64,000 bases of DNA from Escherichia virus TH57: the sequence record MT446422.1; one strand, written 5' to 3'. How positions within the stretch are numbered: position 1 is the stretch's first letter; every line of letters starts with the position of its first letter. Below the pieces are notes generated by a model that did not search any database, had not been told where the DNA came from, and saw nothing but the letters and a program-made list of their open reading frames with translations. The position numbers and the translations under genes are program-made. This document shows positions 81 through 5,518 of this stretch, piece after piece.

Positions 81-653
81 ATGGCGAGTTTAATTTATCA
101 TTACGCAGCAATGAATGCAGGCAAAACAGCTTCATTGCTGACTGCAGCTTATTCCTATAAAGAGCGTGGAATGAGTGTGCTTTTGCTAAAGCCTGTTATT
201 GATAATCGGGACTCGGAATCTGAAATTAAATCACGTATTGGTATTAGTCAGGAAGCAAACCTGGTAACGGCCGACATGAACCTGTTTGAATTCTATAAAT
301 GGGCCGAGTCTCAAAAGGATATCCATTGTGTCCTGGTCGATGAAGCTCAATTTTTGTTACCAGAGCAAATTGACCAGTTAGCTCAAGTGGTTGATAATTA
401 CAATATCCCCGTTATGTGTTACGGGCTAAGAACAGATTTTCGGGGTCAGTTATTTCCCGGTTCAGCCAGACTTCTGGCTATTTCGGATAAACTGGTTGAA
501 TTAAAGGGCGTCTGCCATTGCGGCCGGAAAGCAACCATGACCGCTCGAGTAATCGACGGTGCTGCTGTAAAGGACGGCGAGCAAGTATTGGTCGGTGGGA
601 ATGAATCGTACGTATCTTTATGCAGGAAACATTGGCTCGAATTGACAAGCTGA
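81..653 (+). CDS. tk: thymidine kinase
   Basis: 190 aa, P-loop NAGKT, strong match to recalled T4 Tk; followed by rI as in T4. Confidence 0.9.
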   Translation: MASLIYHYAAMNAGKTASLLTAAYSYKERGMSVLLLKPVIDNRDSESEIKSRIGISQEANLVTADMNLFEFYKWAESQKDIHCVLVDEAQFLLPEQIDQLAQVVDNYNIPVMCYGLRTDFRGQLFPGSARLLAISDKLVELKGVCHCGRKATMTARVIDGAAVKDGEQVLVGGNESYVSLCRKHWLELTS

Positions 654-660
654 GGTCCTT

Positions 661-936
661 ATGATATATAAGATTTGGACGTATATCTCTATTTTTGTTA
701 TTGCTGGAATTGCATTTATCCCCACACAAACAGATAGCGAGAGATATGAAAGGGAAATTGAAATAGTAGCAAGCACGTATCATTCTGTTAATAAAGAATG
801 CCCGAATAAAAATGGAATAAATTTACAAAAAGCACATTATATGCTGACTGTTACTAGTCCGGTGCAAAGAATATGGGTTGATAGCCATTTTTCTGATTTA
901 TTTGCAATATATTGTTTCAAGTTTAAAAGATTATAA
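661..936 (+). CDS. hypothetical small membrane protein (rI.1 position)
   Basis: 91-aa ORF with N-terminal hydrophobic segment, 8 nt after tk stop. Confidence 0.5.
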   Translation: MIYKIWTYISIFVIAGIAFIPTQTDSERYEREIEIVASTYHSVNKECPNKNGINLQKAHYMLTVTSPVQRIWVDSHFSDLFAIYCFKFKRL

Positions 937-1010
937 ATACAGTTACTAACTAGTATTCCGCTATGTTAAGGCTGCAAAGCGTAATCATGACCAACAATAA
1001 GGAGTCCTTT

Positions 1011-1304
1011 ATGGACCTTATTCGAGGACTTTCTCTAAGTCTATTACTAATGGGCTGTTTAGGCCCAAATCTGTCCTCTGCTACAGATGGTAAATTTACA
1101 CAGTATGCAGATAGTGCGATGCAAATCTATTCGCAATTCAAAGAACCTAGCGTCGAGCAGTCCGAACAATTTTGGGCTTTTATTAAAACCGAATGGAACA
1201 ATAAGAGTCAATGTGTAAATGAAATCACATGTCAAATTGATGGCCGTGCTGCTGCAGTCGAATACGCTAAATTAATGAAGGTAAAATTGGAAGATGAAAT
1301 TTGA
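1011..1304 (+). CDS. rI: lysis inhibition regulator rI
   Basis: 97 aa from internal ATG with AAGGAG SD; signal-anchor N-terminus; C-terminal half resembles T4 RI. Confidence 0.75.
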   Translation: MDLIRGLSLSLLLMGCLGPNLSSATDGKFTQYADSAMQIYSQFKEPSVEQSEQFWAFIKTEWNNKSQCVNEITCQIDGRAAAVEYAKLMKVKLEDEI

Positions 1305-1677
1305 TGATTTCGTAACGGGTCGTGGGTCTGAGGTGGATTCATATATTGGGTGGTTGTTAGTCTCTTTGGCTTATTTTAAATCCGCCCATCTTGAAACCAA
1401 AAGTTACGCCCGCCATAAAGCTTATGATTTCTACTTCACAGAAATCCAAGGTCCACTCGACCAGTTCAGTGAGCAATGGTTAGGTTACAGCGGGAAACAA
1501 TACAAAGCTGCATTACCGTCCGCCTCGGACTTGCCGAAAGATACAATTTTGTTTTTAGATGAAATGATTAAAAGCTCGGAAAGAGTCTATAAAGTTGTAC
1601 CCAAGGCTATTCAATCGACTCTGGACGATATCGTTGGAGTTTTCTTTCAGACTAAGTATCTGTTAACATTAGAGTAA
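1294..1677 (+). CDS. hypothetical protein (rI.-1 position)
   Basis: 127-aa ORF overlapping rI stop; synteny. Confidence 0.55.
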   Translation: MKFDDFVTGRGSEVDSYIGWLLVSLAYFKSAHLETKSYARHKAYDFYFTEIQGPLDQFSEQWLGYSGKQYKAALPSASDLPKDTILFLDEMIKSSERVYKVVPKAIQSTLDDIVGVFFQTKYLLTLE

Positions 1678-1682
1678 TTCAA

Positions 1683-1712
1683 AAGGTCTGCCTTCGGGTG
1701 GACCTTTTTTCA
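1683..1712 (+). terminator. rho-independent terminator-like hairpin with T-run
   Basis: GC hairpin with TTCG core followed by TTTTTT. Confidence 0.5.
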
Positions 1713-1720
1713 TTTAGGGG

Positions 1721-1778
1721 GTTTACATCCTCATCAAAAGGGTGTACTATTATCCCATCAACTACTGAGGAGAACACA
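1721..1778 (+). promoter_or_regulatory. early promoter cassette, CATCAACTACTGA leader type
   Basis: -35 GTTTAC, 18-bp spacer, -10 TACTAT, conserved leader TATCCCATCAACTACTGAGGAG, then ATG. Confidence 0.55.
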
Positions 1779-1982
1779 ATGAGAATTAAAAATATCAAGA
1801 TTGATGCAGTTAATACTGGTGATGAGGTTGTTATCTATCTTAATGATTATGCAATCTTTATGGACAGTGCCACTGATGAAGAAATGGTTGAACTCTTACA
1901 GAAAGCTCCATTTGAACTGTGTGAAGAAGATGCTACCCATCTTTCATCAGCAATTTTCTCATTATCATATGTGGTGGAATAA
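1779..1982 (+). CDS. hypothetical protein
   Basis: 67-aa ORF from ATG directly after the conserved leader with GAGGAG SD. Confidence 0.5.
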   Translation: MRIKNIKIDAVNTGDEVVIYLNDYAIFMDSATDEEMVELLQKAPFELCEEDATHLSSAIFSLSYVVE

Positions 1983-2218
1983 TGAAACTTACAAATACCA
2001 TGGTTTCATTGGAATATGAAACCAATAATCATATTCTTGAAATTAAGATATTTGATGACGGAAGCATATTTGCTGATTACCGCGGATATAGAATTCGCCT
2101 GGAAAAGGAACAGCTTAAAGATGTTGAGCTTTTTAAAGAAACATTAAAAAGTTGTGGGTGTAAACTGAAAAATACTCAAGTCCAAGAATTAATTTCTACC
2201 ATCAACAAATACTGGTGA
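1982..2218 (+). CDS. hypothetical protein
   Basis: 78-aa ORF, start overlaps preceding stop. Confidence 0.5.
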   Translation: MKLTNTMVSLEYETNNHILEIKIFDDGSIFADYRGYRIRLEKEQLKDVELFKETLKSCGCKLKNTQVQELISTINKYW

Positions 2219-2222
2219 TATT

Positions 2223-2405
2223 ATGTTAACTACTGAACAAATTGAAAAAATTATTAAACTCGCCTGGCATATTGAAAATGCATCTAATGACCTGGCAGTG
2301 GAATTATGTGAAGGCTATTCATATTCTGGAATAGAACAGTGTAAGCGTGATTTGAATAGTTCTAAAGCTAATTTGGTTGAATATCTGAATGGGTTGAAAG
2401 CATAA
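2223..2405 (+). CDS. hypothetical protein
   Basis: 60-aa ORF in operon tiling. Confidence 0.45.
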   Translation: MLTTEQIEKIIKLAWHIENASNDLAVELCEGYSYSGIEQCKRDLNSSKANLVEYLNGLKA

Positions 2406-2662
2406 TGGCTGTTGGATTTGCAAAAGATGGCGCTGAACAGTTAGAGATGGAAGCGGTTGTACAAGCCGCTATCACCCATGCGAGAGCACAGGTTGCAGTT
2501 GAAAGGGAGTCTGCTGAATTCTGTTTTGACTGCGACGAAAAAATTCCTGAAGCGCGGAGACAAGCGATTAAGGGTGTGATATATTGTGTTGGTTGTCAAT
2601 CAATGCATGATGAAATTTTTAAACGTGAGCCACGAAACTGTTGGCACAGGAGCATGAGATGA
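2405..2662 (+). CDS. DksA/TraR-family C4 zinc-finger protein
   Basis: 85 aa; C-F-D-C ... C-V-G-C with intervening IPEARRQA fits the DksA/TraR C4 signature. Confidence 0.6.
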   Translation: MAVGFAKDGAEQLEMEAVVQAAITHARAQVAVERESAEFCFDCDEKIPEARRQAIKGVIYCVGCQSMHDEIFKREPRNCWHRSMR

Positions 2663-2753
2663 TTTACTATCTTGAACCTTGGGCTTGGTTAATAATGGCT
2701 GTAGGGCCTGTTTTAATTGGTTTATTCTTTTCATGGTTAGCGAGGAAACTGTA

Positions 2754-2969
2754 ATGTTATATGACCCTAGTGGTAATTCTGAAAATGGTGTGATTGTTCT
2801 GGAGCCTGAGCATCCAGTTGGTGACGTATACCGCCCGGTTGAAGTGTGCGAATGTAATTTTGTTAAAGGTAATACTGGTGGTATTTCCATTGAGCAAGAT
2901 GATGATGTTATTTACCTGGATGCAAGCCAAGTAGAAGCGCTTTATAGTATTTTAAAACACAACCGGTGA
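2754..2969 (+). CDS. hypothetical protein
   Basis: 71 aa from ATG with GAGGAA SD; track ORF 2679 begins at an upstream TTG. Confidence 0.45.
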   Translation: MLYDPSGNSENGVIVLEPEHPVGDVYRPVEVCECNFVKGNTGGISIEQDDDVIYLDASQVEALYSILKHNR

Positions 2970-3167
2970 TTTATGAAAACTAAAGAAAAGCATTTAAAGC
3001 TTGAAGAGCTTATCGAGGCCTTATGCAGGTACAGTTGCTAGATTCGAAACAGCATTTTGTCACCAATACTCGGTTGATGATTGTACTAGGCTTTCTAAAG
3101 AAGAAGATAATGCCCTTAAAGAATTGCTAAATTTTATTAAACAAAATGTGAAATGAGGAAATAGAAA

Positions 3168-3728
3168 ATGATTATTGAAACGACTGAATTGTTTGGCGAA
3201 CTGACCGCTGAAGTAGTTAATAACGCAATTGAGCTTTGTCAAGAAGACGATAAAATCGTACTGACTATCGCTGATATTAAACCGCTTTATGATTTAATGG
3301 TTTTGGATAGACACGATTATCTTAATGGTCGTGCTAGTGCTCCTATTGATATCAATGATGATATGTATGCCTATATCTATAAAAATGAAGCTGGGTTTAA
3401 TCTGGAAAATGGTATTGAATGTCTGAGCATCAGCGATTCTGATAAATTCTTTGATTGTATTTTCAAACTCTTTCAGGAAGAATGTAAACCAGAAGTTGAA
3501 TGGAAAGTCCCAGGACAAGACGCACTGATTCGTTCTAGCGAAACGTTTGAAGGCGATGAAGAGGAATTAGATTATAACACTGAACTGACTGTGCATCAAC
3601 ATAACGGCCGTGACTTGTTGTCCATTGTCCAAAGACATGACGGCGAAAGTGAAGTAGTATTTACTAAGGACGAGCTAAAAGTTTTAGTCTCTTATCTGAA
3701 CTCTGTTATCCCAACTATGAACGCTTAA
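3168..3728 (+). CDS. hypothetical acidic protein
   Basis: 186-aa ORF with GAGGAAA SD, D/E-rich. Confidence 0.55.
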   Translation: MIIETTELFGELTAEVVNNAIELCQEDDKIVLTIADIKPLYDLMVLDRHDYLNGRASAPIDINDDMYAYIYKNEAGFNLENGIECLSISDSDKFFDCIFKLFQEECKPEVEWKVPGQDALIRSSETFEGDEEELDYNTELTVHQHNGRDLLSIVQRHDGESEVVFTKDELKVLVSYLNSVIPTMNA

Positions 3729-3738
3729 GGAAAATATT

Positions 3739-4191
3739 ATGATTATCAATACAAACTCATGGCACGCTCGTTTCCACGACCGTTTTTATGACCGCCATTC
3801 TCGACCACACTCTTTGTGTGCTTACTTTTGGAAAATTGTATGGGCCTGCTTTATTTGTTCTGTGCTTGCAGGTAGTACAATCTTCGCCTTATCTGCTGCA
3901 GGTGCTGGTATATTGGAGCAGTTCTTTGTATTAAGTATTCCTGTTGGTTTAGGGTTAGGGTTTATTTTAGGACTAGCTACAGTAGCTCTTATTCTGGCTG
4001 TAGCATTTGGTTTAATGTACGGTCTAATGAATTTATGGTCCTGGTACGATTTACATAAAGAAGAAAAAGAATGGAAACGTATTCAAGCTGAGCGTGAAGG
4101 CCGAGAAACTAAAGAAAACGTTTTCATTCAATATATCAAAGCTCGTAAATCTAAGATGTGTCCGGTAATCCATTTTGAGGCGAAGAAATGA
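3739..4191 (+). CDS. hypothetical membrane protein
   Basis: 150 aa, two long hydrophobic segments, basic C-terminus. Confidence 0.55.
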   Translation: MIINTNSWHARFHDRFYDRHSRPHSLCAYFWKIVWACFICSVLAGSTIFALSAAGAGILEQFFVLSIPVGLGLGFILGLATVALILAVAFGLMYGLMNLWSWYDLHKEEKEWKRIQAEREGRETKENVFIQYIKARKSKMCPVIHFEAKK

Positions 4192-5198
4192 GAACAGTTA
4201 TGAAAGGCTACTTCGGTAGCCATCTTTATGGAACAAGTACTCCTGAATCTGATGTCGATTTTAAGGAAATCTTTGTTCCACACCCACGTGATATTCTGTT
4301 AGGTACGGCTATGAACCATACCAACTTGAACACGAATAATACGGCATCCAAAAACACTAAAGACGATGTTGACCACGAGCTTTATAGTCTGAAATATTTC
4401 TTTAAACTGGCGGCTGAAGGCGAAACTGTTGCTCTGGACATGATTCACACTCCGGCTAACCTGGTAGTCAAATCCGATTTACCAGATGTATGGAAATTTA
4501 TCCAAGACAACCGTTCACGGTTCTATACAACTAACATGAAAGCCTATTTGGGGTATGTCCGTAAGCAAGCTTCAAAATATGGTGTTAAAGGTTCTAGACT
4601 GGCTGCTCTGCGTGGTGTACTGGCAATTGTTAACCAGATTCCTGAACAGTGGGTCGATTATCAAGAAGATGGTTCTGTTAAACAGCGTCGAACTAAGGTA
4701 GAAGATATTAAGCACCGACTCCCTGAAAACGAGTTCTGTGAATGGGTATTTCATAACCATGAGAAAACAGGTCCTCAAACGTTCTATACTGTCCTCGGTC
4801 GTAAATACCAAACCACTTTGTCGTTAATCGAGCTTAAGCAATCTCTGAATAAGCTTGATTCTGAATATGGTGAACGTGCTCGCAAGGCCGAAGCCAATGA
4901 AGGTATTGACTGGAAAGCTCTGAGCCACGCTTATCGTGCTGGATATCAGTTGAAGGAAATTTATATGACCGGTGACCTTCAATATCCTTTACGAACAGCC
5001 CCATTTATCCTTGAAATCAAACAAGGCCTACACGCTTTTAAAGATGTACAAGCTGAACTTGAAGCAATCGTCGATGAAGTCGAAACCAATGCCATCTGGG
5101 CGGCCAAGAACGGCATGCCAGACAAGGTAGACATGAAGTTCTGGGACAAGTTTGTTGAAGAGGTATATCTTGACAACCACAATTCCTATTATTGTTAA
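4188..5198 (+). CDS. putative nucleotidyltransferase-fold protein
   Basis: 336 aa; N-terminal GSHLYG...SDVDF resembles the minimal NTase motif; ATGA overlap with upstream ORF. Confidence 0.45.
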   Translation: MRTVMKGYFGSHLYGTSTPESDVDFKEIFVPHPRDILLGTAMNHTNLNTNNTASKNTKDDVDHELYSLKYFFKLAAEGETVALDMIHTPANLVVKSDLPDVWKFIQDNRSRFYTTNMKAYLGYVRKQASKYGVKGSRLAALRGVLAIVNQIPEQWVDYQEDGSVKQRRTKVEDIKHRLPENEFCEWVFHNHEKTGPQTFYTVLGRKYQTTLSLIELKQSLNKLDSEYGERARKAEANEGIDWKALSHAYRAGYQLKEIYMTGDLQYPLRTAPFILEIKQGLHAFKDVQAELEAIVDEVETNAIWAAKNGMPDKVDMKFWDKFVEEVYLDNHNSYYC

Positions 5199-5203
5199 AT
5201 TCT

Positions 5204-5229
5204 AAGGACCCTTCGGGGTCCTTTTTTTA
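5204..5229 (+). terminator. rho-independent terminator
   Basis: GGACCC-TTCG-GGGTCC hairpin followed by TTTTTTT. Confidence 0.75.
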
Positions 5230-5242
5230 TTTTAAAAAGTAG

Positions 5243-5311
5243 TGTACGACCAGATGGTTATGAGGCATAATGATTCCATACTGAGTTACCAAATAAAAAC
5301 TGGAGAATAAA
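5243..5311 (+). promoter_or_regulatory. early promoter cassette, CCATACTGAGTTACC leader type
   Basis: AAAAAGTAGTGTAC -35 region, 17-bp spacer, CATAAT, conserved leader GATTCCATACTGAGTTACCAAA..CTGGAGAATAAA ATG. Confidence 0.6.
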
Positions 5312-5518
5312 ATGTTAGAATTAATCAAAGCTGCTGGTGAAAAAGGTCTGATGGTTAACACTCGTGACCCTGAACAACGTCAAGCATTTGGTGAGTTAAA
5401 AGCCAAAGGTCTGGTTAAAGCATCCCTTGGTATTGGCAATGCTTTGCGTGTGACTTTGACCCCTGCAGGTAAAGCAATGTTCTTCCCTAAACCATTACCA
5501 AAACGTCGTCGCAAGTGA
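5312..5518 (+). CDS. hypothetical small basic protein
   Basis: 68 aa, C-terminal KRRRK, directly after promoter cassette. Confidence 0.5.
   Translation: MLELIKAAGEKGLMVNTRDPEQRQAFGELKAKGLVKASLGIGNALRVTLTPAGKAMFFPKPLPKRRRK

What the first reader, a model, noticed from the sequence alone, without database searches (positions are those of the whole stretch)
2405..2662. DksA/TraR-type zinc-finger protein in the rI-nrdC accessory block
The 85-aa ORF carries C-x2-C ... I-P-x2-R ... C-x2-C, which fits the DksA/TraR family signature. Members of this family bind the RNA polymerase secondary channel, so this is a candidate modulator of host transcription early in infection.
Basis: partly seen in the sequence, partly recalled or inferred. 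Interest (0 to 1): 0.45.

Follow-up and report, generated by a model that had tools for sequence, protein, structure and literature searches.

The report
Phage YbiI/TraR-type zinc-finger protein gene
This is a real, well-conserved early gene of a T4-like coliphage that encodes a small TraR/DksA-family zinc-finger protein closest to E. coli YbiI; it probably binds host RNA polymerase, but the family assignment was already published and the function has never been tested.

Summary
It passes Pfam PF01258 (36.3 bits, gathering score 24.9). It is under strong purifying selection across T4-like and jumbo phages. Its predicted fold overlays RNA-polymerase-bound TraR at 2.3 Å rmsd.

Its closest relative is E. 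coli YbiI (PDB 2KGO), not TraR or DksA. It has one N-terminal helix rather than a DksA coiled coil.

The RNAP-contacting arginines (R51, R52) and a C-terminal helix are present. The functional DxxDxA tip motif is replaced by F5-x-x-D8-x-A10. A 9-residue tail, RNCWHRSMR, is invariant and has no TraR counterpart.

The gene follows a T4-early-type promoter (1721-1750) within a unit that ends at a terminator (5204-5223).

The most likely function is an early-expressed binder of the host RNAP secondary channel that reprograms transcription initiation. This is inferred, not shown.

An identical protein is already annotated as a TraR-family zinc finger. The Merlin ortholog was described in 2015 as a DksA/TraR-domain protein of unknown function. 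The finding is ordinary and of modest interest.

The parts
2405..2662 (+). CDS of the 85-aa TraR/DksA-family (YbiI-like) C4 zinc-finger protein. It is the orthologue of VR7ORF106c / VR20 gp099.
   Evidence: ORF. Pfam PF01258 above the gathering score. Orthologues annotated in VR7 and VR20. Purifying selection with pN/pS 0.27.
2405..2440 (+). Codons 1-12, MAVGFAKDGAEQ: the N-terminal tip segment carrying F5-x-x-D8-x-A10, a variant of the TraR DxxDxA motif.
   Evidence: pN/pS is 0.013 with pS 0.63. Among 153 YbiI-like proteins, position 5 is W/F/Y in all (they were selected on it), position 8 is D in 139 and position 10 is A in 135. The spacing from D8 to the first Cys has a mode of 31, equal to TraR D6-C37.
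2423..2494 (+). Predicted single long N-terminal helix (aa 7-30), the counterpart of TraR-N.
   Evidence: AF2 model. Superposes on RNAP-bound TraR 5W1S at 2.3 Å rmsd.
2522..2596 (+). C4 zinc-binding globular region (C40, C43, C61, C64). It includes I47-P48-E49-A50-R51-R52 (nt 2543-2560), the counterpart of TraR I44-R49.
   Evidence: The Cys residues and IPE-RR are invariant in a 36-sequence alignment. The roles of TraR R48 (rim helices) and R49/E46 (beta' Si3) come from PMC9239242 and PMC6970531.
2588..2617 (+). Predicted C-terminal helix (aa 62-71), the counterpart of TraR-C, which contacts the beta lobe-Si1.
   Evidence: AF2 secondary structure. hhalign aligns aa 11-74 to TraR 8-71.
2633..2659 (+). 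Invariant C-terminal tail R77-N-C-W-H-R-S-M-R85. TraR has no counterpart. It appears to be a diverged form of the bacterial YbiI tail NRRGSKDSQLR.
   Evidence: pN/pS is 0.027 with pS 0.70, including an AGC->TCT serine codon switch in PBECO4. Tails are compared; P0069 has an intermediate form, HNRKVWHRSMR.
1681..1708 (+). Intrinsic terminator-like hairpin that closes the upstream rI / MobD.7-like unit.
   Evidence: 12-bp stem followed by a T run.
1721..1750 (+). T4-early-type promoter match, GTTTAC-N14-GGTGTACTAT. It is the only promoter of this type found between 600 and 5400.
   Evidence: The consensus GTTTAC(N14)gtggTAttaT is as quoted in the SA79RD record, where such a promoter is annotated at the equivalent position.
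5204..5223 (+). Terminator-like hairpin after the NrdC.11 homologue; likely end of the transcription unit that contains the gene.

Best explanation
The gene encodes a small zinc-binding protein of the TraR/DksA family, of the YbiI-like branch. It is made early in infection from a sigma-70 T4-early-type promoter.

Inferred mechanism:
- It binds host RNA polymerase without binding DNA.
- Its single N-terminal helix inserts into the secondary channel, placing D8/A10 near the active-site region.
- The zinc-ribbon domain docks on the beta' rim helices and Si3 through R51/R52.
- The C-terminal helix faces the beta lobe-Si1.
- As with lambda Orf73 and other phage TraR homologues, the expected outcome is inhibition of rRNA and ribosomal-protein promoters, which frees RNAP for phage promoters, independently of ppGpp.

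Shown here: the ORF, its family, its predicted fold, its conservation pattern and its promoter context. Inferred: RNAP binding, its effect on promoters and its timing. Because the tip motif is non-canonical, activity may be weaker than or different from that of TraR.
For: - Pfam PF01258 scores above the gathering threshold.
- Profile-profile alignment to a TraR-type set gives 99.8% probability over aa 11-74.
- The AF2 model (pLDDT 72) has an N-helix, a Zn domain and a C-helix. It overlays RNAP-bound TraR 5W1S_M/N at 2.3 Å rmsd over 66-68 columns, TM 0.72-0.76.
- I47-P48-E49 and R51-R52 are invariant. They match TraR I44-P45-E46 and R48-R49, which contact the rim helices and Si3.
- D8 and A10 are nearly invariant. 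In most family members they sit at the same distance from the first Cys as TraR D6.
- X. bovienii Gp34, which also lacks the first Asp, still binds RNAP as well as TraR does, with lower activity.
- All five phage TraR homologues tested bound RNAP and complemented a dksA deletion.
- YbiI is reported to rescue dksA auxotrophy when overexpressed.
- The N-terminal 12 codons have the lowest pN/pS in the gene, 0.013, as expected for a functional tip.
- An early-type promoter lies upstream.
Against: - The strict DxxDxA motif is absent: the first Asp is replaced by Phe.
- The N-terminus is two residues longer than TraR's, and TraR S2 already lies 4.3 Å from the catalytic Mg2+.
- Profile-profile alignment does not place the first 10 residues with any confidence, so the D8 = TraR D6 equivalence rests on spacing statistics only. 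In this protein the spacing is 32, not 31.
- Scores fall below the curated cut-offs of TIGR02419 (52.9 vs 59.7) and of the YbiI equivalog (76.4 vs 96).
- No member of the YbiI-like branch has published RNAP-binding data. [quoted passage not shown]
- Some C4 zinc-finger members of the family do not act on RNAP.
- The invariant tail has no explanation in the TraR model.
Confidence: 0.6

Rival explanations
1. The protein occupies the secondary channel but does not regulate like TraR. It would act as a plug or competitor. One version excludes DksA/ppGpp and the Gre factors from host RNAP, blunting the host's stringent or anti-backtracking responses. The other version inhibits catalysis outright, through an N-terminus that is two residues longer and carries an aromatic where TraR has Asp3.
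For: - The same fold and rim-helix arginines as in the best explanation.
- The tip motif is altered to [FW]xxDxA throughout the YbiI-like branch.
- The tip aspartates are needed for DksA/TraR function but not for binding.
- TraR S2 is already 4.3 Å from the Mg2+.
- Rnk is a precedent for a channel binder that only competes.
- The phage clade has an extra acidic residue, E11, giving D8-x-x-E11, a spacing also seen in the Gre-factor DxxExA tips.
Against: There is no direct evidence. Gp34, which lacks D3, retains TraR-like activity. YbiI reportedly complements dksA, which argues for DksA-like activity rather than mere blocking.
Confidence: 0.2
2. It is a zinc-ribbon protein whose target is not RNA polymerase. 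The target could be a nucleic acid or another protein, and the invariant C-terminal tail would be the key interface. Candidates include a phage-encoded partner, as QisA is for TraR of VP882, or a host factor shared with bacterial YbiI.
For: - The most conserved parts are the termini, and the tail RNCWHRSMR has no TraR counterpart.
- Bacterial YbiI proteins have their own invariant tail, NRRGSKDSQLR.
- Some family members do not act on RNAP.
- The function of YbiI is unknown.
- TraR of VP882 works in a complex with a neighbouring gene product.
- The gene is translationally coupled to its neighbours, with TAATG and ATGA overlaps.
Against: - The RNAP-contacting residues of TraR (E46, R48, R49) are invariant here as E49, R51, R52, which would be hard to explain otherwise.
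- No neighbour is conserved in all lineages. DUF7189 follows the gene only in Gaprivervirus, Mosigvirus and Kanagawavirus, not in Moonvirus or the jumbo phages.
- In VP882, growth arrest still depends on TraR's RNAP-binding motif.
Confidence: 0.15
3. The ORF is non-functional or a decaying remnant.
For: It is an accessory gene, absent from T4. Truncated 54-aa chimeras exist in Mosigvirus.
Against: The full-length ORF is intact in several genera and in jumbo phages. dN/dS is about 0.07-0.15 where it can be measured, and all zinc ligands are invariant.
Confidence: 0.01

Closest known systems
E. coli YbiI (PDB 2KGO; NCBIfam NF008243/PRK11019)
   Same: - Best sequence and fold match: phmmer E=1.2e-9 over aa 1-69, Foldseek E=6.5e-6.
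- Same N-terminus, M-A-x-G-[FW]-A-x-D-G-A.
- Same C4 spacing and the same IPxARR.
- Similar length (85 vs 88 aa).
- Both have a strongly conserved C-terminal tail after the last helix.
   Different: - Scores 76.4 bits, below the equivalog cut-off of 96.
- The tail is RNCWHRSMR rather than NRRGSKDSQLR.
- Clade-specific residues E11 and H25 replace V11 and R25.
- It is phage-encoded and sits behind an early-type promoter, whereas ybiI is a sigma-S-dependent chromosomal gene.
- YbiI's own function is unknown.
F-plasmid TraR and its phage homologues (lambda Orf73, P2 Orf82, VP882 Orf61, VHML Orf8, X. bovienii Gp34)
   Same: - Same three-part architecture: N-helix, C4 Zn globular domain, C-helix.
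- The predicted model overlays RNAP-bound TraR at 2.3 Å rmsd.
- IPEARR is identical to TraR 44-49.
- Encoded by a mobile element or phage among small ORFs.
- Like Gp34, it lacks the first Asp of the tip motif.
   Different: - About 29-30% identity.
- The tip is FxxDxA, not DxxDxA.
- There are two extra N-terminal residues.
- There is a 12-14 residue C-terminal extension with an invariant motif.
- The host phage is strictly virulent and T4-like, whereas the characterised homologues come from temperate phages or plasmids.
- No biochemical data exist.
DksA
   Same: It shares the C4 zinc-finger domain (PF01258). The expected binding site is the RNAP secondary channel.
   Different: - There is no coiled coil; a single helix is predicted.
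- About half the length of DksA.
- The NCBIfam DksA_like model scores 13.2 bits against a cut-off of 105.
- The Foldseek match to DksA is weak (E=0.18).
- TraR-size proteins lack the ppGpp-binding elements and act without ppGpp.

Membership tests
Pfam PF01258 zf-dskA_traR (TraR/DksA C4-type zinc finger) | HMM score at or above the gathering threshold | tested here: met
   36.3 bits against 24.9, E=5.8e-9, aa 38-66
Pfam PF01258 zf-dskA_traR (TraR/DksA C4-type zinc finger) | Four Cys arranged as CxxC-x17-CxxC | tested here: met
   C40, C43, C61 and C64 are invariant in 36 homologues
TraR-like RNAP regulators (Gopalkrishnan et al. 2017/2022) | N-terminal helix carrying the DxxDxA tip motif | tested here: not met
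   The helix is predicted at aa 7-30, but the motif reads F5-A-K-D8-G-A10. The first Asp is replaced by an aromatic in all 153 YbiI-like sequences, which were selected on that position. Register with TraR D6 is supported by spacing only (31-32 residues to the first Cys) and is not resolved by hhalign.
TraR-like RNAP regulators (Gopalkrishnan et al. 2017/2022) | Globular-domain residues equivalent to TraR R48 (rim helices) and R49/E46 (beta' Si3) | tested here: met
   E49, R51 and R52 are invariant. They align with TraR E46, R48 and R49.
TraR-like RNAP regulators (Gopalkrishnan et al. 2017/2022) | C-terminal helix (beta lobe-Si1 contact) | tested here: met
   Helix predicted at aa 62-71, aligned to the TraR C-helix. 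The contact itself was not tested.
TraR-like RNAP regulators (Gopalkrishnan et al. 2017/2022) | Direct binding to RNAP; inhibition of rRNA and r-protein promoters; complementation of a dksA deletion | not testable with these tools
   Needs biochemistry or genetics. The only indirect support is the YbiI complementation statement, reported as data not shown.
NCBIfam TIGR02419 C4_traR_proteo (phage/conjugal plasmid TraR subfamily) | Score at or above the curated cut-off | tested here: not met
   52.9 bits against 59.7
YbiI equivalog (NCBIfam NF008243 / PRK11019) | Score at or above the curated cut-off | tested here: not met
   76.4 bits against 96. It is the best-scoring model, but the score is below the cut-off.
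YbiI equivalog (NCBIfam NF008243 / PRK11019) | Conserved termini: M-A-x-G-[WF]-A-x-D-G-A at the N-terminus and NRRGSKDSQLR at the C-terminus (my own description) | tested here: inconclusive
   The N-terminus matches. The C-terminal tail has diverged to RNCWHRSMR; an intermediate form, HNRKVWHRSMR (P0069), suggests homology.
DksA proper | Coiled-coil domain, ppGpp-site residues and a match to the DksA HMM | tested here: not met
   A single helix is predicted. NF033459 scores 13.2 bits against 105.

The most novel reading that the evidence does not exclude
The YbiI-like branch, including this phage clade, may be a functionally distinct class of secondary-channel effectors rather than 'weak TraRs'. 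Three features set it apart. Its invariant N-terminus is two residues longer and carries an aromatic in place of the first tip Asp, so it could reach or occlude the catalytic centre. Its invariant C-terminal tail (RNCWHRSMR in phages, NRRGSKDSQLR in bacteria) could engage a second site on RNAP or a partner protein. The phage-specific residues E11, H25, C79, W80 and H81 would then be an adaptation of a host stationary-phase factor into an early host-takeover weapon of virulent phages.
Probability: 0.2. Interest if true: 0.55.

Novelty: already known. Interest (0 to 1): 0.3.

Why it matters
TraR-type proteins let plasmids and temperate phages reprogram host transcription without ppGpp. Whether strictly virulent T4-like and jumbo phages use the same trick has not been tested.

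This gene is a clean candidate. It also represents the YbiI-like branch, whose function is unknown even in E. coli. A simple set of assays would settle both questions: RNAP binding, rrnB P1 inhibition, dksA complementation and a phage knockout.

As a discovery it adds little. The domain assignment was published for the Merlin orthologue in 2015 and for other T4-like phages in 2006, and identical proteins are already annotated as TraR-family zinc fingers.

Tried and rejected
- **Register of the N-terminal tip.** I tried to fix it objectively with profile-profile alignment (hhalign). Only aa 11-74 align with confidence, and the global mode gaps out A6-D8. The D8 = TraR D6 equivalence therefore rests on spacing statistics and is marked inconclusive.
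- **Conserved partner gene.** I looked for a neighbour conserved in the way QisA is for TraR of VP882, using all-vs-all BLASTP of flanking ORFs in nine loci. DUF7189 follows the gene in Gaprivervirus, Mosigvirus and Kanagawavirus. It does not in Moonvirus, HMGUkp2 or the jumbo phages, so no universal partner exists.
- **Other promoter types.** I searched 600-5400 for MotA-box middle promoters and TATAAATA late promoters upstream of the gene. None lies between 1750 and 2405; the only late motif, at 932-939, precedes rI.
- **RNA features.** Rfam and tRNA scans of the whole window found nothing, so no overlapping RNA feature explains the conserved termini.
- **DNA-level constraint on the tail.** I asked whether the conserved tail reflects the downstream gene's Shine-Dalgarno sequence (GGAG at 2649-2652). 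I rejected this as the main cause: synonymous sites vary, and PBECO4 uses AGA TCT where the others use AGG AGC.
- **Antisense ORFs.** Those at 2441-2599 and 2600-2890 have no family support and conflict with the + frame selection signal.
- I re-ran it without that row.
- **Literature.** Searches for functional work on YbiI or on T4-like TraR homologues found only annotation-level mentions.

Full report
**1. The observation**

The ORF at 2405..2662 (+) is the first-ATG-to-stop reading frame listed. It encodes 85 aa.

The start overlaps the stop of the upstream ORF (TAATG at 2403-2407). The stop overlaps the start of a 31-aa membrane ORF (ATGA at 2659-2662).

The window is a Gaprivervirus, a T4-like coliphage about 95% identical to VR20, VR7 and CJ20. 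The ORF is VR7ORF106c / VR20 gp099, annotated 'hypothetical protein' in RefSeq.

The stated context holds. rI is at 963-1304 (Pfam Antiholin, E=7e-30). The NrdC.11-type nucleotidyltransferase is at 4188-5198.

**2. Is it more than chance?**

Yes.
- Pfam PF01258 zf-dskA_traR: E=5.8e-9, 36.3 bits against a gathering score of 24.9.
- PHROG phrog_54 'DksA-like zinc-finger protein': E=2e-20.
- 63 homologues in the 5.8-billion-protein collection.
- 404 representative clusters at E<=1e-3 in the exhaustive search, though only 8 at E<=1e-10.
- tblastn finds it in 775 phage records, about 166 of them at 60% identity or more.

I ran a codon-level comparison of nine orthologues. They came from Gaprivervirus, Moonvirus (Merlin), Kanagawavirus (PEi26, CIP9), Klebsiella phage HMGUkp2, the jumbo Asteriusvirus PBECO4 and the jumbo Erwinia phage Hallingskeid. 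Overall pS was 0.70, pN 0.18 and pN/pS 0.27. Where dS is not saturated, dN/dS is about 0.07-0.15. The + frame is therefore a real, selected gene.

**3. What it is**

By sequence, the closest characterised relative is neither TraR nor DksA. It is E. coli YbiI.
- The best NCBIfam model is NF008243/PRK11019 at 76.4 bits, below its equivalog cut-off of 96.
- TIGR02419 (the TraR subfamily) scores 52.9 against 59.7.
- The TraR equivalog scores 30 against 108.
- DksA_like scores 13 against 105.
- Against PDB sequences, YbiI 2KGO gives E=1.2e-9 over residues 1-69. TraR (5W1S, 6N57) gives about 1e-4.

An AlphaFold2 model built from 36 homologues has mean pLDDT 72. It shows one long N-terminal helix (7-30), a zinc-ribbon region with a short helix (49-54), a C-terminal helix (62-71) and a low-confidence tail.

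Foldseek against the PDB returns YbiI first (E=6.5e-6). TraR as bound to RNA polymerase comes next: 5W1S chains M/N at 2.3 Å rmsd over 66-68 columns with target TM 0.72-0.76, and 6N57_M at 2.7 Å. DksA matches only weakly (E=0.18).

The architecture is thus that of TraR. TraR has TraR-N at 2-27, TraR-G at 28-57 and TraR-C at 58-73 (PMC6970531). It is not the coiled coil of DksA.

**4. Functional residues**

The Gourse laboratory defines three conserved, functionally tested elements in TraR (PMC9239242):
- the N-terminal DxxDxA tip, needed for activity but not for binding;
- the globular-domain residues R48 (beta' rim helices) and R49/E46 (beta' Si3);
- the C-terminal helix (beta lobe-Si1).

The globular-domain residues are present. 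I47-P48-E49 and R51-R52 are invariant in all 36 aligned homologues, and the stretch is identical to TraR I44-R49. A C-terminal helix is predicted.

The strict tip motif is absent. The sequence is M-A-V-G-F5-A-K-D8-G-A10-E-Q.

I took the 211 proteins fetched and selected those starting M-x-x-G-[WFY]; 153 did. By that selection position 5 is aromatic in all of them (W 81, F 70, Y 2). Position 8 is D in 139 and position 10 is A in 135. The distance from position 8 to the first Cys is 31 in 96 sequences and 32 in 29, including this protein.

TraR D6 lies 31 residues before C37. In 26 DxxDxA-type homologues the corresponding distance is 28-34. The family therefore seems to carry [FW]xxDxA in register with DxxDxA.

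Profile-profile alignment aligns only aa 11-74 with confidence and does not resolve the first ten residues. I therefore call the register supported but not proven.

There is a useful precedent. X. bovienii Gp34 also lacks the first Asp. It binds RNAP as well as TraR does and retains reduced activity.

**5. Features TraR does not have**

- *N-terminus.* It is two residues longer than TraR's, and TraR S2 is already 4.3 Å from the catalytic Mg2+.
- *C-terminal tail.* The last nine residues, R-N-C-W-H-R-S-M-R, are invariant in every full-length phage-clade protein down to 58% overall identity.
- *Bacterial tail.* Bacterial YbiI-like proteins carry a different invariant tail, NRRGSKDSQLR. An intermediate form, HNRKVWHRSMR, exists in P0069.

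The two termini are the most constrained parts of the gene. pN/pS is 0.013 for codons 1-12 and 0.027 for codons 77-85, against 0.26-0.47 elsewhere, and synonymous divergence is high in both segments (pS 0.63 and 0.70). PBECO4 even switches the Ser codon family, AGC to TCT. The constraint is therefore on the protein. It is not on the downstream gene's ribosome-binding site or on an RNA element, and Rfam and tRNA scans found none.

The phage-clade residues E11 and H25 co-occur with the WH-type tail. H25 is found in 42 of 42 such proteins. Bacteria have V11 and R25. This reflects one evolutionary split, so it is a hint only.

**6. Expression context**

A terminator-like hairpin (1681-1708) closes the rI/MobD.7-like unit. 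It is followed by GTTTAC-N14-GGTGTACTAT at 1721-1750. This is a close match to the T4 early-promoter consensus GTTTAC(N14)gtggTAttaT, which is annotated at the equivalent position in Mosigvirus SA79RD.

No middle or late promoter motif lies between that promoter and the gene. The next terminator-like hairpin is at 5204-5223, after the NrdC.11 homologue.

The gene is thus the fourth cistron of an early-type unit of about 3.5 kb, made of tightly packed and partly overlapping small ORFs. The other cistrons are:
- a MobD.5-like ORF;
- a 78-aa ORF;
- a DUF7438 ORF;
- a 31-aa TM peptide;
- a DUF7189 ORF;
- a y05I-like putative transcription factor;
- a membrane protein;
- NrdC.11.

Early timing is inferred, not measured.

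**7. Mechanism**

*Best explanation (confidence 0.6).* This is an early-expressed, ppGpp-independent binder of the host RNAP secondary channel. [quoted passage not shown] This was shown for lambda Orf73 and proposed for other phage TraR homologues. Activity may be attenuated or modified because of the altered tip.

*Rivals.*
- A channel occupant that mainly competes with DksA or the Gre factors, or blocks catalysis (0.2).
- A zinc-ribbon protein whose key interface is the tail and whose target is not RNAP (0.15). The recent finding that TraR of VP882 works in a complex with a neighbouring gene product keeps partner-dependent models open, although growth arrest there still needs the RNAP-binding motif.
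- A non-functional ORF (0.01).

No neighbour is conserved in all lineages.

**8. Comparison with what is known, and novelty**

The family assignment is not new.
- A 100%-identical protein in phage UPEC01 is annotated 'TraR family zinc finger protein'.
- JGI names the same cluster 'phage/conjugal plasmid C-4 type zinc finger TraR family'.
- The 78%-identical Merlin orthologue is annotated 'contains zinc finger DksA/TraR-like domain'. [quoted passage not shown]
- A dksA/traR zinc-finger ORF in the T4-like phage 44RR was listed in 2006 (PMC1524935).

I found no functional study of any T4-like, jumbo-phage or YbiI-branch member.

The verdict is a real and already recognised family member. Its mechanism is plausible but untested. 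It has some under-appreciated sub-family features: the tip variant, the invariant tail and the affinity to YbiI. Interest is 0.3.

Noticed in passing
L003 2459-2623 (Mosigvirus SA79RD); proteins P0048, P0050, P0058, P0060, P0063: These are 49-64-aa chimeric ORFs. Most (P0048, P0058, P0060, P0063) fuse the first ~22 residues of the DUF7189 protein (window 2754-2969, 'MLYD..G.SE.GV') to the last ~30 residues of the TraR-like protein ('VVIYCVGCQSMHDEIFKREPRNCWHRSMR'). P0050 has a different N-terminal part. All lack the first CxxC and IPEARR, yet the frame and the invariant tail are kept, and the family has its own PHROG (phrog_25948). The normal 31-aa ORF and a full DUF7189 gene follow. They look like a recombination scar, or possibly a neofunctionalised tail peptide.
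   Followed up: partly
L005 2501-2758 (Escherichia phage PBECO4, NC_027364.1 140781-141038, minus strand): This jumbo Asteriusvirus carries an intact copy that is 65% identical, but RefSeq annotates no CDS there. Related jumbo phages (Turkey3, ECO103 4-12-1, Erwinia phage Hallingskeid) also carry it. The same gene clade is therefore shared between T4-like and jumbo phages.
   Followed up: partly
window 2659-2754 (+): A 31-aa hydrophobic ORF (MIYYLEPWAWLIMAVGPVLIGLFFSWLARKL) overlaps the stop of the TraR-like gene (ATGA) and the start of the next gene (TAATG). It is 100% conserved in VR7 and VR20 and 94% in Mosigvirus SA79RD. It is absent from Kanagawavirus, where DUF7189 follows the zinc-finger gene directly.
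   Followed up: partly
window 1294-1677 (+): RefSeq calls the VR7/VR20 orthologue (MobD.7-like) a 'starvation-inducible transcriptional regulator'. In Pfam it matches only DUF5856 (E=6e-31), so the product name looks unsupported.
   Followed up: no
window 3168-3728 (+): The MobD.1 homologue matches Pfam T4_y05I_N and T4_y05I_C ('y05I-like putative transcription factor'). It is a second possible transcription-related protein in the same early unit.
   Followed up: no
window 2435-2437, 2477-2479, 2639-2647 (codons E11, H25, C79-W80-H81): These phage-clade-specific residues co-occur. H25 is found in 42 of 42 proteins with the WH-type tail and E11 in 40 of 42. Bacterial YbiI-like proteins have V11, R25 and an SKDSQLR tail. 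This could indicate a contact or a second metal site between the N-helix and the tail, but it reflects a single evolutionary split.
   Followed up: partly
window 932-939 (+): A T4 late-promoter motif, TATAAATA, lies just upstream of rI (963-1304). It is the only such motif between 600 and 5400.
   Followed up: no
window 1-64000: No tRNA gene and no Rfam family at gathering score was found anywhere in the 64-kb window.
   Followed up: yes
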